From NCBI RefSeq assembly GCF_006345805.1, contig NC_043001.1:4340001-4404000 (forward strand): a stretch of DNA of 64,000 nt, in the 5' to 3' direction. Source of the DNA: Octopus sinensis (taxonomy: Eukaryota). Shown here piece by piece: positions 35,713 to 41,683 of the stretch (position 1 is its first letter; each line of letters begins with the position of its first letter). Position numbers: made by a program.

Positions 35713-38700
35713 TATGCATATATATATATATCGTATATATATACATATATATATATTAGACATGGCCTGGGCCAATACTGGCCAAAACCTTTCTAAGTTA
35801 TTCTAAGTTATATATATATGTATATATATATATCGTATATATATATATATATATATATATTTTTTAGTCAATTTAGGGTAGCAAAAAAATTCAATAGAAA
35901 TTTATCGCTACCAGCGGCCTGATGGAAAAGAGAAAATAGTCATCGACTAAATATATAAATATAACAATTTAGGAGTGACCCCAACAGGTCACTCGTCCAC
36001 CAGAAGAGCAGCCATAACTCACACCGCCAAGTAGTAGTAATTCAGAAATTAGGTGAAAATTTAAAAAACATTTACCCTAATTCATCTTTTAGACGTTGCA
36101 ACGTTTCTGTGTCATTAATGATCAAATTAGCTTAATTAAATTAAATTAAGCCAATCTACCATAGGTTACACTTCATCAGTAAAAGACCTGGGAGAGACAA
36201 ATATACACGAGGCGTCTGTATCGATGCCTACGGGATATCTGACTTAAAATTTTCAAGACTGACGTATTCGCGCCAAACTTATCAACAGTAAATATAAACT
36301 GCCGATTCAATCTCAGAATTATTCAGAAAATTATCAATTAGTCAATTTAGGGTAGCAAAAAAATTCAATAGAAATTTATCGCTACCAGCGGCCTGATGGA
36401 AAAGAGAAAATAGTCATCGACTAAATATATAAATATAACAATTAGGAGTGACCCCAACAGGTCACTCGTCCACCAGAAAGAGCAGCCATAACTCACACCG
36501 CCAAGTAGTAGTAATTCAGAATTAGGTGAAAATTTAAAAAAACATTTACCCTAATTCATCTTTTAGACGTTGCAACGTTTCTGTGTCATTAATGATCAAA
36601 TTAGCTTAATTAAATTAAATTAAGCCATCTACCATAGGTTACACTTCATCAGTAAAAGACCTGGGAGAGACAAATATACACGAGGCGTCTGTATCGATGC
36701 CTACGGGATATCTGACTTAAAATTTTCAAGACTGACGCATTCGCGCCAAACTTATCAACAGTAAATATAAACTGCCGATTCAATCTCAGAATTATTCAGA
36801 AAATTATCAATTAGTCAATTTAGGGTAGCAAAAAAATTCAATAGAAATTTATCGCTACCAGCGCCTGATGGAAAAGAGAAAATAATCATCGACTAAATAT
36901 ATAATATAACAATTTAGGAGTGACCCCAACAGGTCACTCGTCCACCAGAAAGAGCAGCCATAACTCACACACCGCCAAGTAGTAGTAATTCAGAAATTAG
37001 GTGAAAATTTAAAAAACATTTACCCTAATTCATCTTTTAGACGTTGCAACGTTTCTGTGTCATTAATGATCAAATTAGCTTAATTAAATTAAATTAAGCC
37101 AATCTACCATAGGTTACACTTCATCAGTAAAAGACCTGGGAGAGACAAATATACACGAGGCGTCTGTATCGATGCCTACGGGATATCTGACTTAAAATTT
37201 TCAAGACTGACGTATTCGCGCCAAACTTATCAACAGTAAATATAAACTGCCGATTCAATCTCAGAATTATTCAGAAAATTATCAATTAGTCAATTTAGGG
37301 TAGCAAAAAAATTCAATAGAAATTTATCGCTACCAGCGGCCTGATGGAAAAGAGAAAATAGTCATCGACTAAATATATAAATATAACAATTTAGGAGTGA
37401 CCCCAACAGGTCACTCGTCCACCAGAAGAGCAGCCATAACTCACACCGCCAAGTAGTAGTAATTCAGAAATTAGGTGAAAATTTAAAAAACATTTACCCT
37501 AATTCATCTTTTAGACGTTGCAACGTTTCTTCTTCTTTCTGTGTCATTAATGATCAAATTAGCTTAATTAAATTAAATTAAGCCAATCTACCATAGGTTA
37601 CACTTCATCAGTAAAAGACCTGGGAGAGACAAATATACACGAGGCGTCTGTATCGATGCCTACGGGATATCTGACTTAAAATTTTCAAGACTGACGTATT
37701 CGCGCCAAACTTATCAACAGTAAATATAAACTGCCGATTCAATCTCAGAATTATTCAGAAAATTATCAATTAGTCAATTTAGGGTAGCAAAAAAATTCAA
37801 TAGAAATTTATCGCTACCAGCGGCCTGATGGAAAAGAGAAAATAGTCATCGACTAAATATATAAATATAACAATTTAGGAGTGACCCCAACAGGTCACTC
37901 GTCCACCAGAAAGAGCAGCCATAACTCACACCGCCAAGTAGTAGTAATTCAGAAATTAGGTGAAAATTTAAAAAACATTTACCCTAATTCATCTTTTAGA
38001 CGTTGCAACGTTTCTGTGTCATTAATGATCAAATTAGCTTAATTAAATTAAATTAAGCCAATCTACCATAGGTTACACTTCATCAGTAAAAGACCTGGGA
38101 GAGACAAATATACACGAGGCGTCTGTATCGATGCCTACGGGATATCTGACTTAAAATTTTCAAGACTGAGAAAATAGAAAAAGAAAATAGTCATCGTTGC
38201 AACGTCTAAAAGATGAATTAGGGTAAATGTTTTTTAAATTTTCACCTAATTTCTGAATTACTACTACTTGGCGGTGTGAGTTATGGCTGCTCTTTCTGGT
38301 GGACGAGTGACCTGTTGGGGTCACTCCTAAATTGTTATATTTATATATTTAGTCGATGACTATTTTCTCTTTTCCATCAGGCCGCTGGTAGCGATAAATT
38401 TCTATTGAATTTTTTTGCTACCCTAAATTGACTAATTGATAATTTTCTGAATAATTCTGAGATTGAATCGGCAGTTTATATTTACTGTTGATAAGTTTGG
38501 CGCGAATACGTCAGTCTTGAAAATTTTAAGTCAGATATCCCGTAGGCATCGATACAGACGCCTCGTGTATATTTGTCTCTCCCAGGTCTTTTACTGATGA
38601 AGTATAACCTATGGTAGATTGGCTTAATTTAATTTAATTAAGCTAATTTGATCATTAATGACACAGAAACGTTGCAACGTCTAAAAGATGAATTAGGGTA

Positions 38701-41652
38701 AATGTTTTTTAAATTTTCACCTAATTTCTGAATTACTACTACTTGGCGGTGTGAGTTATGGCTGCTCTTTCTGGTGGACGAGTGACCTGTTGGGGTCACT
38801 CCTAAATTGTTATATTTATATATTTAGTCGATGACTATTTTCTCTTTTCCATCAGGCCGCTGGTAGCGATAAATTTCTATTGAATTTTTTTGCTACCCTA
38901 AATTGACTAATTGATAATTTTCTGAATAATTCTGAGATTGAATCGGCAGTTTATATTTACTGTTGATAAGTTTGGCGCGAATACGTCAGTCTTGAAAATT
39001 TTAAGTCAGATATCCCGTAGGCATCGATACAGACGCCTCGTGTATATTTGTCTCTCCCAGGTCTTTTACTGATGAAGTGTAACCTATGGTAGATTGGCTG
39101 AATTTAATTTAATTAAGCTAATTGATCATTAATGACACAGAAACGTTGCAACGTCTAAAAGATGAATTAGGGTAAATGTTTTTTAAATTTTCACCTAATT
39201 TCTGAATTACTACTCCTTGGCGGTGTGAGTTATGGCTGCTCTTTCTGGTGGACGAGTGACCTGTTGGGGTCACTCCTAAATTGTTATATTTATATATTTA
39301 GTCGATGACTATTTTCTCTTTTCCATCAGGCCGCTGGTAGCGATAAATTTCTATTGAATTTTTTTGCTACCCTAAATTGACTAATTGATAATTTTCTGAA
39401 TAATTCTGAGATTGAATCGGCAGTTTATATTTACTGTTGATAAGTTTGGCGCGAATACGTCAGTCTTGAAAATTTTAAGTCAGATATCCCGTAGGCATCG
39501 ATACAGACGCCTCGTGTATATTTGTCTCTCCCAGGTCTTTTACTGATGAAGTGTAACCTATGGTAGATTGGCTTAATTTAATTTAATTAAGCTAATTGAT
39601 CATTAATGACACAGAAACGTTGCAACGTCTAAAAGATGAATTAGGGTAAATGTTTTTTAAATTTTCACCTAATTTCTGAATTACTACTACTTGGCGGTGT
39701 GAGTTATGGCTGCTCTTTCTGGTGGACGAGTGACCTGTTGGGGTCACTCCTAAATTGTTATATTTATATATTTAGTCGATGACTATTTTCTCTTTTCCAT
39801 CAGGCCGCTGGTAGCGATAATTTCTATTGAATTTTTTTGCTACCCTAAATTGACTAATTGATAATTTTCTGAATAATTCTGAGATTGAATCGGCAGTTTA
39901 TATTACTGTTGATAAGTTTGGCGCGAATACGTCAGTCTTGAAAATTTTAAGTCAGATATCCCGTAGGCATCGATACAGACGCCTCGTGTATATTTGTCTC
40001 TCCCAGGTCTTTTACTGATGAAGTGTAACCTATGGTAGATTGGCTTAATTTAATTTAATTAAGCTAATTTGATCATTAATGACACAGAAACGTTGCAACG
40101 TCTAAAAGATGAATTAGGGTAAATGTTTTTTTAAATTTTCACCTAATTTCTGAATTACTACTACTTGGCGGTGTGAGTTATGGCTGCTCTTTCTGGTGGA
40201 CGAGTGACCTGTTGGGTCACTCCTAAATTGTTATATTTATATATTTAGTCGATGACTATTTTCTCTTTTCCATCAGGCCGCTGGTAGCGATAAATTTCTA
40301 TTGACTTTTTTTGCTACCCTAAATTGACTAATTGATAATTTTCTGAATAATTCTGAGATTGAATCGGCAGTTTATATTTACTGTTGATAAGTTTGGCGCG
40401 AATACGTCAGTCTTGAAAATTTTAAGTCAGATATCCCGTAGGCATCGATACAGACGCCTCGTGTATATTTGTCTCTCCCAGGTCTTTTACTGATGAAGTG
40501 TAACCTATGGTAGATTGGCTTAATTTAATTTAATTAAGCTAATTTGATCATTAATGACACAGAAACGTTGCAACGTCTAAAAGATGAATTAGGGTAATGT
40601 TTTTTTAATTTTCACCTAATTTCTGAATTACTACTACTTGGCGGTGTGAGTTATGGCTGCTCTTTCTGGTGGACGAGTGACCTGTTGGGGTCACTCCTAA
40701 ATTGTTATATTTATATATTTAGTCGATGACTATTTTCTCTTTTCCATCAGGCCGCTGGTAGCGATAAATTTCTATTGAATTTTTTTGCTACCCTAAATTG
40801 ACTAATTGATAATTTTCTGAATAATTCTGAGATTGAATCGGCAGTTTATATTTACTGTTGATAAGTTTGGCGCGAATACGTCAGTCTTGAAAATTTTAAG
40901 TCAGATATCCCGTAGGCATCGATACAGACGCCTCGTGTATATTTGTCTCTCCCAGGTCTTTTACTGATGAAGTGTAACCTATGGTAGATTGGCTTAATTT
41001 ATTTAATTAAGCTAATTTGATCATTAATGACACAGAAACGTTGCAACGTCTAAAAGATGAATTAGGGTAAATGTTTTTTAAATTTTCACCTAATTTCTGA
41101 ATTACTACTACTTGGCGGTGTGAGTTATGGCTGCTCTTTCTGGTGGACGAGTGACCTGTTGGGGTCACTCCTAATTGTTATATTTATATATTTAGTCGAT
41201 GACTATTTTCTCTTTTCCATCAGGCCGCTGGTAGCGATAAATTTCTATTGAATTTTTTTGCTACCCTAAATTGACTAATTGATAATTTTCTGAATAATTC
41301 TGAGATTGAATCGGCAGTTTATATTTACTGTTGATAAGTTTGGCGCGAATACGTCAGTCTTGAAAATTTTAAGTCAGATATCCCGTAGGCATCGATACAG
41401 ACGCCTCGTGTATATTTGTCTCTCCCAGGTCTTTTACTGATGAAGTGTAACCTATGGTAGATTGGCTTAATTTAATTTAATTAAGCTAATTGATCATTAA
41501 TGACACAGAAACGTTGCAACGTCTAAAAGATGAATTAGGGTAAATGTTTTTTAAATTTTCACCTAATTTCTGAATTACTACTACTTGGCGGTGTGAGTTA
41601 TGGCTGCTCTTTCTGGTGGACGAGTGACCTGTTGGGGTCACTCCTAAATTGT

Positions 41653-41683
<31 letters not shown>

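What the first reader, a model, noticed from the sequence alone, without database searches (positions are those of the whole stretch)
35864..41657. 5.8-kb retrozyme-like array: ~12 tandem 474-bp hammerhead units folded into a giant inverted repeat
Seen: about 4.9 units run on the minus strand and about 7.3 on the plus strand, diverging from a central switch. Units are nearly identical, non-coding, carry one type I HHR each, and the whole block lies between (TA)n tracts. 35864-38010 mirrors 38195-40331 (about 2.1-kb arms, 184-bp spacer). Established: tandem HHR repeats (non-LTR retrozymes) self-cleave into monomers that circularise and are thought to be mobilised by Penelope-like elements, which often insert with inverted terminal repeats. 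Inference: this is one recent insertion made by rolling-circle reverse transcription of a ~474-nt circular RNA, primed from both target strands. A multimer-by-multimer inversion and a unit of this size look unusual to me. A read-through transcript would be multi-kb dsRNA and a potential ADAR/RNAi substrate.
Basis: partly seen in the sequence, partly recalled or inferred. Interest (0 to 1): 0.92.

Follow-up and report, generated by a model that had tools for sequence, protein, structure and literature searches.

The report
Inverted hammerhead retrozyme array in (TA)n
This is a young 5.8-kb block of about twelve near-identical 474-bp non-coding repeats, each encoding a self-cleaving hammerhead-type RNA motif, arranged head-to-head inside a TA microsatellite in the way Penelope-like retrotransposons insert, so it is a good example of a known kind of mobile element and not a new kind.

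Summary
Two 474-bp tandem arrays (4.8 units on the minus strand, 35864-38169; 7.3 on the plus strand, 38195-41665) lie head-to-head, with sense 5' ends at the centre and 3' ends running into (TA)n. Each unit carries one complete type I hammerhead core. Ten of 12 copies fold unconstrained into the classical double hammerhead. No Rfam hammerhead model detects the motif, probably because helix II is a 64-nt arm with an A.A at its base. The plus-polarity circle is strongly structured (z = -5.2), and the unit is non-coding with 35% GC. This is a non-LTR retrozyme.

Published unit sizes span 51-972 bp. An inverted 5'-truncated copy next to partial tandems, with (TA)n targeting, is the described hallmark of Penelope-like element insertions. 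The "184-bp spacer" is unit sequence plus a 25-nt filler copied from the unit.

One double-primed reverse-transcription event is the best reading, but it is not proven. DNA-level rearrangement or mis-assembly remain possible, no Penelope-like gene lies in the window, and (TA)n covers 6-7% of local sequence. The host was not identified.

The parts
35809..35863 (.). Left target remnant: (TA)n tract followed by 4 extra T (35860-35863) that match neither the unit nor the TA repeat
   Evidence: TRF 35809-35860 (TA)25.5; sequence; exact end of unit homology at 35864
35864..38169 (-). Minus-strand arm, 4.8 units. In sense order from the centre: 5'-truncated unit (38169-37999, about unit positions 304-474), M1 37998-37514 (485 nt), M2 37513-37040, M3 37039-36566, M4 36565-36092, then a 3' partial unit 36091-35864 ending at about unit position 228
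38170..38194 (-). 25-nt junction filler: a stuttered copy of about unit positions 147-171 in minus-arm orientation. It shares a 2-nt CG overlap with the palindromic helix III that starts the plus arm
   Evidence: local alignment to a unit dimer; exact strings
38195..41657 (+). Plus-strand arm, 7.3 units: the last 12 nt of a unit (38195-38206, helix III + GUC), full units P1-P7 (38207-41523), and a 3' partial unit whose exact match ends at 41657 (about unit position 133), inside a TA-rich stretch of the unit that merges into (TA)n (TRF extends the array to 41665)
41655..41676 (.). Right target remnant: short (TA)n tract overlapping the TA-rich end of the last unit
   Evidence: sequence; alignment
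38594..38681 (+). Hammerhead copy P1 (CUGAUGA to GUC; helix I strands lie about 8 nt either side). It carries a G-to-A change in the closing stem of helix II, and the predicted double-hammerhead core is not free
39069..39155 (+). Hammerhead copy P2, intact; folded in detail
39543..39629 (+). Hammerhead copy P3, intact
40015..40102 (+). Hammerhead copy P4, intact
40490..40577 (+). Hammerhead copy P5, intact
40964..41050 (+). Hammerhead copy P6, intact (1-nt deletion in the distal helix II loop)
41437..41523 (+). Hammerhead copy P7, intact
37999..38086 (-). Hammerhead copy in the innermost, 5'-truncated minus-arm unit, intact
37514..37611 (-). Hammerhead copy of M1 with a 10-nt purine insertion between helix II and G12; the predicted core is not free, so it is probably inactive
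37040..37127 (-). Hammerhead copy of M2, intact
36566..36652 (-). Hammerhead copy of M3, intact core (1-nt deletion in the helix II arm)
36092..36179 (-). Hammerhead copy of M4, intact

Best explanation
The block is a non-LTR retrozyme: a non-coding, AT-rich 474-bp unit repeated in tandem, with one type I hammerhead ribozyme per unit. Transcripts of either arm would run outward from the centre. Neighbouring ribozymes pair through their palindromic helix III into a double hammerhead and cut after GUC, which would release 474-nt monomers able to be ligated into highly structured circles (inferred). The locus itself is most likely the product of one recent retrotransposition into a (TA)n microsatellite. 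One nicked target strand primed reverse transcription on a TA-rich stretch of the RNA, and the polymerase went round a circular (or along a multimeric) template about 7.3 times. The other target strand primed a second cDNA of about 4.8 units. The two cDNA 3' ends were then joined by microhomology with a short template-switch filler. This yields two 5'-truncated arms head-to-head, the architecture described for Penelope-like element insertions and geometrically the same as L1 twin priming. Shown: the anatomy, the motif, the predicted folds, the junctions and the near-identity of units. Inferred: cleavage, circles, the RT route, and the identity of the enzyme.
For: The array and its polarity are established. 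A complete hammerhead core (CUGAUGA, GAA, A15.1-U16.1, C17) is present, with a 7-bp helix I, a closed helix II and a 4-bp helix III capped by a palindromic tetraloop. The hammerhead-constrained fold is -26.7 kcal/mol against a free MFE of -27.9. The pattern occurs 12 times against 0.01 expected. An unconstrained homodimer co-fold gives the double hammerhead (12-bp intermolecular helix III, helix I in trans, core unpaired) in 10 of 12 copies. The 2 failures are exactly the 2 copies with lesions. The dimer is 14.7 kcal/mol more stable than two monomers. The circular plus-polarity monomer folds to -126.9 kcal/mol, z = -5.2 against 100 dinucleotide shuffles, while the minus polarity reaches only -90.5. 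GC is 35% and there is no ORF. Youth and a homogeneous template: 29 differences from consensus over 11 full units (5,224 nt). Of these, 17 are indels, and all 15 single-base ones lie in runs of the same base. The other 12 are substitution-type events, 5 of them in one cluster, and almost all variants are private to one unit. The arms differ by 6 mismatches in 2155 aligned columns. Both sense 3' ends abut (TA)n, and the right one ends inside a TA-rich unit stretch, which is priming microhomology. Both 5' ends are truncated at different phases away from the cleavage site and are joined through a 25-nt filler copied from the unit, with a CG overlap. The flanks are unique and not mirrored. Literature: tandem/inverted insertions, an inverted 5'-truncated copy and (TA)n bias for Penelope-like elements (PMC8557442, passages); retrozyme features (PMC7229834, passages and section 14); pLTR-retrozyme kinship (10.64898/2026.07.22.740005, abstract, Results, Discussion); PLE-type hammerheads with a larger helix II, an extra nucleotide after A9 and a palindromic helix III (PMC4209133, passages).
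Against: No Rfam hammerhead model matches at any threshold tried. Helix II is atypical: an A on each side separates the G-C closing pair from A9 and G12, and I saw no report of an extra nucleotide on the 3' side. Because the units are near-identical and no relatives could be fetched, there is no covariation support. The dimerisation gain is not extreme: 6 of 200 mononucleotide shuffles reach it. No reverse transcriptase or GIY-YIG remnant of a Penelope-like element was found in the window. That covers 26 of the 36 frames of >=120 aa and 116 of the 192 frames of >=70 aa; the dropped frames were low-complexity, overlapping, or inside the array. (TA)n covers 6.4-6.8% of the window outside the array, so landing there by chance has p of about 0.07, and other elements are nested in the same tract. 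No target-site duplication and no 30-40-bp Penelope-type 'tail' is discernible. Four T at the left junction are unexplained. A filler with microhomology is also what replication-based DNA rearrangements leave. The excess of homopolymer indels may be assembly noise.
Confidence: 0.55

Rival explanations
1. DNA-level origin: a small retrozyme (or pLTR-derived) repeat expanded locally by unequal crossing-over or replication slippage. A replication template switch or fold-back within the array then produced the inverted arm. No double-primed reverse transcription is needed.
For: The 2026 preprint's Discussion proposes local amplification by unequal crossover for retrozyme arrays. Junction filler copied from nearby sequence, with 2-nt microhomology, is also typical of replication-based rearrangements (the comparison is from general knowledge). 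(TA)n tracts are abundant here.
Against: The arms are as similar to each other as units within an arm (6 mismatches in 2155 columns), so amplification and inversion would have to be simultaneous and very recent. Both outer ends are sense 3' ends in (TA)n, one with TA microhomology. An in-situ inverted duplication does not predict this. No older, diverged units and no Penelope-like body lie at the locus.
Confidence: 0.22
2. Assembly artefact: the inversion and/or the copy numbers come from chimeric fold-back long reads or from mis-assembly of a simple one-orientation array.
For: Craig et al. note that tandem/inverted structures cause assembly problems (PMC8557442 passage). All 15 single-base indels between units lie in runs of the same base, a pattern typical of long-read consensus error (the typicality is from general knowledge).
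Against: The flanks on the two sides are unique and not mirror images (no blastn hit between 30000-35863 and 41666-47500). The arms differ in length (4.8 against 7.3 units) and in phase. The minus arm has private features absent from every plus unit: a 10-nt insertion in M1 and the variants of M3 and M4. The junction contains a specific filler and is not a clean fold-back point.
Confidence: 0.1
3. Ribozyme-dead satellite: the units descend from a retrozyme, but the hammerhead no longer cleaves because of the atypical helix II base. The array would then be inert tandem DNA, whatever its insertion route.
For: No Rfam hammerhead hit. There is an A.A at the helix II base where a G10.1-C11.1 pair normally abuts the core (PMC4209133 passages call that pair highly conserved). 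PLE-type hammerheads showed low activity in vitro (PMC4209133 passage).
Against: All invariant core residues are present in 12 of 12 copies. A G-C pair follows the extra A, and an extra nucleotide after A9 is a conserved trait of PLE hammerheads (PMC4209133 passage). The double-hammerhead fold is the unconstrained MFE in 10 of 12 copies. The plus polarity is far more structured than the minus. A very young array of near-identical units implies a recently active source.
Confidence: 0.13

Closest known systems
Metazoan non-LTR retrozymes (Cervera & de la Pena 2020, PMC7229834: coral, mussel, axolotl)
   Same: [quoted passage not shown]
   Different: The hammerhead has a 64-nt helix II arm with an internal loop where loop 2 normally sits, and an A on each side of the closing G-C pair. 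Rfam models do not detect it. The head-to-head two-arm arrangement is not described in the passages and sections I read. The sequence family and the host are unidentified.
Penelope-like element insertions (pLTR partial tandems with an inverted 5'-truncated copy; Craig et al. 2021, PMC8557442)
   Same: Partial tandem copies, an adjacent inverted 5'-truncated copy forming an inverted repeat, insertion in (TA)n, and no discernible target-site duplication.
   Different: There is no RT/GIY-YIG ORF, the units are 474-bp non-coding multimers, and no 30-40-bp tail is seen. The (TA)n preference is stated for Naiads, which lack canonical hammerheads, and only hypothesised for Neptune.
PLE-type and amphibian/schistosome dimeric hammerheads (Cervera & de la Pena 2014, PMC4209133; Forster et al. 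1988 as cited there)
   Same: A palindromic helix III/loop 3 that allows a double hammerhead, an extra nucleotide between A9 and G10.1, and an enlarged helix II.
   Different: Helix III is longer here (4 bp plus tetraloop) and helix I is full-length (7-8 bp), as in canonical invertebrate motifs. Helix II is far longer (64 nt) than the 6-8 bp reported.
L1 twin-priming inversions
   Same: Two cDNAs primed from the two target strands, giving segments with 5' ends meeting at an internal junction that shows microhomology or small fillers.
   Different: Each arm here is a multimer, which implies a circular or concatemeric template. The enzyme would be a Penelope-like RT. No paper in the library links twin priming to Penelope-like elements: the search gave 3 listings, none with either term in its title or abstract, and I opened none of them.

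Membership tests
Hammerhead ribozyme, type I | Invariant core: C3 U4 G5 A6 N7 G8 A9, G12 A13 A14, A15.1-U16.1, H17 cleavage site | tested here: met
   CUGAUGA ... GAA-A ... U-C is present in 12 of 12 copies and placed correctly in the fold. The numbering is recalled and agrees with PMC4209133 passages.
Hammerhead ribozyme, type I | Three helices around the core, with helix I open and helices II and III closed | tested here: met
   Helix I is 7 bp, helix II is a closed 64-nt arm, and helix III is 4 bp plus a tetraloop. The constrained fold is -26.7 against a free MFE of -27.9 kcal/mol. The double-hammerhead is the unconstrained dimer MFE in 10 of 12 copies.
Hammerhead ribozyme, type I | G10.1-C11.1 pair directly abutting A9 and G12 | tested here: inconclusive
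   A G-C pair is present, but one A on each side separates it from the core. An extra nucleotide after A9 is known in PLE hammerheads (PMC4209133 passage). I saw no report of one before G12.
Hammerhead ribozyme, type I | Match to curated covariance models (Rfam hammerhead families) | tested here: not met
   There was no hammerhead match at gathering score, at E<=10 on 6.6 kb, at E<=10 on one 146-nt copy, or among the 150 listed of 173 matches at E<=1 on the window (23 lower rows not shown).
Hammerhead ribozyme, type I | Covariation in the helices across relatives | not testable with these tools
   Units are near-identical, and no eukaryotic DNA collection was available to fetch relatives.
Hammerhead ribozyme, type I | Site-specific self-cleavage | not testable with these tools
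   This needs in vitro transcription.
Non-LTR retrozyme | Tandem repeats of about 150-450 bp (up to 972 bp) with a type I hammerhead in every unit | tested here: met
   474-bp period, 12.1 units in total, one motif per unit. Size ranges come from PMC7229834 and 10.64898/2026.07.22.740005.
Non-LTR retrozyme | Low GC (<45%), non-coding | tested here: met
   GC is 0.35 and the longest stop-free stretch is 59 aa.
Non-LTR retrozyme | Expressed as small, highly self-paired circular RNA | tested here: inconclusive
   The predicted circular fold is -126.9 kcal/mol, z = -5.2, with 64% of bases paired. Expression and circularity cannot be tested here.
Non-LTR retrozyme | Co-occurrence with Penelope-like elements in the same genome | not testable with these tools
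   None lies in the 64-kb window. The rest of the genome is not available.
Penelope-like insertion architecture | Partial tandem copies plus an inverted 5'-truncated copy at the 5' end | tested here: met
   Both arms are 5'-truncated at the centre, in opposite orientation.
Penelope-like insertion architecture | Microsatellite, (TA)n, target | tested here: met
   (TA)n lies at both outer ends. This is weak evidence, because (TA)n covers 6.4-6.8% of the local sequence.
Penelope-like insertion architecture | 30-40-bp tail extension at one end | tested here: not met
   The ends show only 4 extra T (left) and direct entry into (TA)n (right). The 52-bp island further left belongs to another repeat.
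Penelope-like insertion architecture | RT plus GIY-YIG endonuclease ORF | tested here: not met
   The element has no ORF. No such Pfam domain was found in the scanned frames of the window. A non-autonomous element would not be expected to carry one.

The most novel reading that the evidence does not exclude
The locus is a fossil of the retrozyme integration step itself. Circular retrozyme RNA would have been copied by rolling-circle reverse transcription from both strands of a Penelope-endonuclease break in (TA)n. That would be the first junction-level evidence that Penelope-like machinery mobilises non-LTR retrozymes. The element would also carry a hammerhead architecture (a 64-nt helix II arm whose internal loop replaces loop 2, with extra A residues on both sides of G10.1-C11.1) that current covariance models miss, which would imply that retrozyme surveys undercount such families.
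Probability: 0.35. Interest if true: 0.65.

Novelty: new member of a known kind. Interest (0 to 1): 0.45.

Why it matters
The papers I read say that who mobilises animal retrozymes, and how, is still inferred only from co-occurrence and sequence kinship with Penelope-like elements (10.64898/2026.07.22.740005 Discussion; PMC7761336 passages). A very young insertion with intact junctions shows what the integration product looks like: two multimeric cDNAs, 3' ends in (TA)n, 5' ends joined with a filler. If the pattern recurs across this genome, the Penelope hypothesis becomes directly testable by comparing insertion signatures. The locus also shows that a plausible hammerhead can escape Rfam models because of a long helix II, which matters for ribozyme and retrozyme censuses. 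A transcript reading through the whole block would form a stem of about 2.1 kb, a possible small-RNA source, but nothing here tests that.

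Tried and rejected
1. Rfam hammerhead detection was tried four ways and gave no hammerhead. Sub-threshold hits in and near the array are microsatellite-driven or hairpin-driven miRNA-model matches and chance-level snoRNA matches.
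2. Host identification failed. The ESM Atlas on a degraded RT C-terminal fragment (21645-22067) gave only 'Eukaryota', best score 0.91, with recognition below the tool's guide value. The homology search gave 2 unnamed ENA fragments at E<=1e-5 among 13 candidates, and I did not pursue them. My guess of a decapod-like, microsatellite-rich invertebrate rests on composition alone and is unverified.
3. The search for a Penelope-like partner in the window found nothing above curated cut-offs. I scanned 26 of the 36 frames of >=120 aa and 116 of the 192 frames of >=70 aa. The 76 frames dropped had residue entropy below 3.6 bits or lay inside the array.
4. The fold-back-chimera test by flank mirroring gave no hits.
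5. Other copies of the unit in the window: only TA-rich matches of <=31 nt with E>=0.06.
6. The 52-bp island at 35757-35808 as a possible Penelope 'tail' was rejected. It is the 3' end of another dispersed repeat, with copies at 20722-20763 and 20862-20903.
7. Using unit variants to separate a circular from a multimeric template was uninformative. Variants are almost all private, and the shared ones are mainly homopolymer-length changes.
8. Literature: the 'non-LTR retrozymes' + 'inverted' search returned 2 papers, and in both the word occurs only in reference titles. 'Penelope-like' + 'twin priming' returned 3 listings, none with either term in title or abstract, and I opened none. The metagenome and viral collections and all paper supplements were closed. 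Supplementary figures of PMC7229834 and PMC4209133, which I could not see, may show comparable hammerheads or array structures.

Full report
OBSERVATION. Tandem Repeats Finder reports two adjacent arrays with a 474-bp period. One spans 35864-38169 (4.8 copies, 97% matches) and the other 38195-41665 (7.3 copies, 99% matches). A 16-nt anchor (GAAA, helix III, GUC) occurs 7 times on the + strand, only in the right array, and 5 times on the - strand, only in the left array. The two arrays therefore have opposite polarity. Their sense directions diverge from the centre, with 5' ends inside and 3' ends outside. Arms 37536-38010 and 38195-38669 are 100% complementary with 184 nt between them. Over the full arms, 2123 of 2155 aligned columns are identical, with 6 mismatches and 26 gap columns. 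The window holds no N.

ANATOMY OF THE UNITS. I cut the arrays at the predicted cleavage site. This gives 7 full plus-strand units (473-475 nt) and 4 full minus-strand units (474, 474, 474 and 485 nt), plus partial units at all four arm ends. Over the 11 full units (5,224 nt) there are 29 differences from the consensus. Seventeen are indels, and all 15 single-base ones lie in runs of the same base. Twelve are substitution-type events, 5 of which form one cluster in unit M4. Almost all variants are private to one unit. The unit has 35% GC, and no frame stays open for more than 59 codons in a trimer. No other copy of the unit exists elsewhere in the window; only TA-rich matches of <=31 nt were found.

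THE RIBOZYME. No Rfam hammerhead model matches. This holds at gathering scores on the window, at E<=10 on the 6.6-kb region, at E<=10 on a single 146-nt copy, and among the 150 listed of 173 matches at E<=1 on the whole window (23 lower-scoring rows were not shown). By hand, each unit contains the following elements in order:
- a 7-nt helix I strand
- CUGAUGA
- a 64-nt segment that folds into a long closed arm (-18.1 kcal/mol)
- GAA
- a 4-bp helix III (including A15.1-U16.1) capped by a palindromic tetraloop
- C17
- the complementary helix I strand

That is a type I topology. The hammerhead-constrained fold (-26.7 kcal/mol) is nearly isoenergetic with the free MFE (-27.9). The core pattern occurs 12 times against 0.01 expected in 100 dinucleotide shuffles. 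Since these are copies of one motif, this counts as one independent occurrence, before the two helices are even required.

Helix III with its flanking A and U is a perfect 12-nt palindrome. Alone it folds at -1.6 kcal/mol as a hairpin and at -19.3 as a duplex. An unconstrained co-fold of two ribozyme domains gives the classical double hammerhead: a 12-bp intermolecular helix III, helix I formed in trans, and all core residues unpaired. It is 14.7 kcal/mol more stable than two monomers. The same fold is the MFE in 10 of 12 copies. The two exceptions are exactly the copies with lesions: a G-to-A change in the helix II closing stem of P1, and a 10-nt insertion between helix II and G12 in M1. The control on the dimerisation gain is only moderate, because 6 of 200 mononucleotide shuffles reach the native gain.

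The atypical points are two. First, the helix II arm is 64 nt long and has a 5x5 internal loop after a 4-bp proximal stem, where loop 2 normally sits. Second, one A on each side separates the G-C closing pair from A9 and G12.

[quoted passage not shown] The present motif shares these traits but keeps a full-length helix I. I saw no report of an extra nucleotide before G12. Because the units are near-identical and no eukaryotic DNA collection was available, covariation could not be tested. Activity is inferred, not shown.

THE WHOLE RNA. Folded as a circle, the plus-polarity monomer reaches -126.9 kcal/mol, against a mean of -96.4 (sd 5.9) for 100 dinucleotide shuffles (z = -5.2), with 64% of bases paired. 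The minus polarity reaches only -90.5 kcal/mol. This fits the 'highly self-paired' circles described for metazoan retrozymes (PMC7229834, section 14).

JUNCTIONS. The left arm's sense 3' end stops at about unit position 228 (window 35864). Next come 4 T that match neither the unit nor the repeat, and then (TA)n (35809-35860). The right arm's exact match to the unit stops at 41657 (about unit position 133), inside a TA-rich stretch of the unit that merges into a short (TA)n tract. A (TA)n 3' end priming on that stretch would leave this kind of microhomology.

At the centre, the minus arm starts at about unit position 304 (38169). The plus arm starts with the last 12 nt of a unit (38195), which are the palindromic helix III plus GUC. 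Between them lie 25 nt (38170-38194) that are a stuttered copy of about unit positions 147-171 in minus-arm orientation, and they share a CG with the palindrome.

Neither 5' end coincides with the cleavage site. The templates thus ran through the ribozyme site, as a circle or an uncleaved multimer would.

SURROUNDINGS. The flanks 30000-35863 and 41666-47500 share no similarity in either orientation. The structure is therefore not a simple fold-back chimera. The minus arm also has private features that no plus unit has. The window is extremely rich in microsatellites. (TA)n covers 6.4-6.8% of it outside the array, so insertion in (TA)n at a single locus is only weak evidence of targeting (p about 0.07).

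Other elements are nested in the same tract. One is a 148-bp perfect-stem palindrome bracketed by TA at 41675-41822 (DNA hairpin -70.4 kcal/mol, z = -19). Another is a 52-bp 3' end of a dispersed repeat at 35757-35808, with copies at 20722-20763 and 20862-20903.

No reverse transcriptase or GIY-YIG domain reaches a Pfam cut-off. This covers 26 of the 36 frames of >=120 aa and 116 of the 192 frames of >=70 aa (the dropped frames were low-complexity, overlapping, or inside the array). The only hint is a sub-threshold zf-RVT match in a degraded fragment at 21309-22067. The host could not be named.

WHAT IS KNOWN. PMC7229834 (passages and section 14) defines metazoan non-LTR retrozymes as tandem repeats of about 150-450 bp with low GC and one type I hammerhead per unit. 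They occur from dimers to large multimers, are expressed as circles, and co-occur with Penelope-like elements. The 2026 preprint 10.64898/2026.07.22.740005 (abstract, Results, Discussion) gives consensus lengths of 51-972 bp, states that 75% of families have at most 7 units, and reports kinship with Penelope pLTRs. It says the mobilisation mechanism remains to be characterised.

Craig et al. 2021 (PMC8557442, passages) describe Penelope-like insertions as partial tandems. There is 'often' an inverted 5'-truncated copy adjacent at the 5' end, a (TA)n bias (stated for Naiads, hypothesised for Neptune), target-site duplications that are often indiscernible, and a 30-40-bp tail at one end.

A unit of 474 bp is therefore ordinary, and a head-to-head arrangement is the expected signature of the presumed mobilising machinery. 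I found no description of head-to-head retrozyme arrays. The 'non-LTR retrozymes' + 'inverted' search returned 2 papers, and in both the word occurs only in reference titles. No paper links twin priming to Penelope-like elements: one search gave 3 listings with neither term in title or abstract, and I opened none. Supplements were closed and may contain such cases.

MECHANISM. Best reading (confidence about 0.55): one recent retrotransposition into (TA)n, in which both target strands primed cDNA synthesis on circular or multimeric retrozyme RNA. The two cDNAs (7.3 and 4.8 units) were then joined at their 3' ends through microhomology and a template-switch filler. The geometry equals L1 twin priming (recalled from Ostertag & Kazazian 2001, not read here) and the Penelope-type inverted copy. 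Transcripts of each arm would self-cleave through double hammerheads into 474-nt monomers that can circularise.

Rivals:
- DNA-level expansion plus a replication template switch (0.22). Its difficulty is that the arms are as alike as neighbouring units, and both outer ends are sense 3' ends in (TA)n.
- Mis-assembly (0.10). Unique non-mirrored flanks, unequal arms, private variants and a specific filler argue against it.
- A ribozyme that no longer cleaves (0.13). This is not exclusive of the other readings.

VERDICT. I file it as a new member of a known kind (non-LTR retrozyme). It has two points of moderate interest: junctions that look like a Penelope-type double-primed insertion, and a hammerhead with a long helix II that curated models miss.

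Noticed in passing
window 41675-41822: A 148-bp near-perfect palindrome bracketed by TA...TA sits immediately right of the array. As single-stranded DNA it forms a hairpin of -70.4 kcal/mol, z = -19, with 0 of 200 shuffles as stable. It scores 51.9 bits on Rfam MIR3444, below the gathering score of 80. It looks like a MITE with a TA target duplication, and no second copy exists in the window.
   Followed up: partly
window 35757-35808; 20722-20763; 20862-20903: A conserved ~42-bp sequence followed by a short 8-10-bp tandem tail and then (TA)n occurs three times (88-90% identity). It is probably the 3' end of a dispersed retroposon whose tail seeds or targets TA microsatellites. One copy is nested in the same (TA)n tract as the retrozyme.
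   Followed up: partly
window 19950-20483 and 21309-22067 (+): These are degraded reverse-transcriptase C-terminal fragments. The second has a sub-threshold zf-RVT match (18.1 bits against a cut-off of 27.5) and 72-75% identity to two unnamed ENA fragments. It is interrupted by an (ATCT)61 microsatellite at 21407-21648. It appears LINE-like and not Penelope-like, but it was not classified.
   Followed up: partly
window 61746-63999 and throughout: Microsatellite load is extreme. (AT)n arrays span 61746-62344 and 62913-63999 (GC 17.5% in the last 2 kb). There are also (TAT)78 at 25046-25280, (TATC)36 at 44748-44891 and many (TA)n and (CA)n tracts. Perfect (TA)>=5 runs cover 6.4% of the window outside the array. 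They produce about 170 spurious sub-threshold miRNA-model hits in Rfam.
   Followed up: partly
window 35860-35863: Four T lie between the (TA)n tract and the end of the left arm. They match neither the unit nor the repeat. They may be untemplated addition or target sequence; this remains unexplained.
   Followed up: no
window 37514-37611 (-): Unit M1 carries a 10-nt purine-rich insertion exactly at the helix II / G12 boundary of its hammerhead. It looks like a local stutter of the adjacent AGAAA sequence, and it is the only length change larger than 2 nt in any unit.
   Followed up: partly
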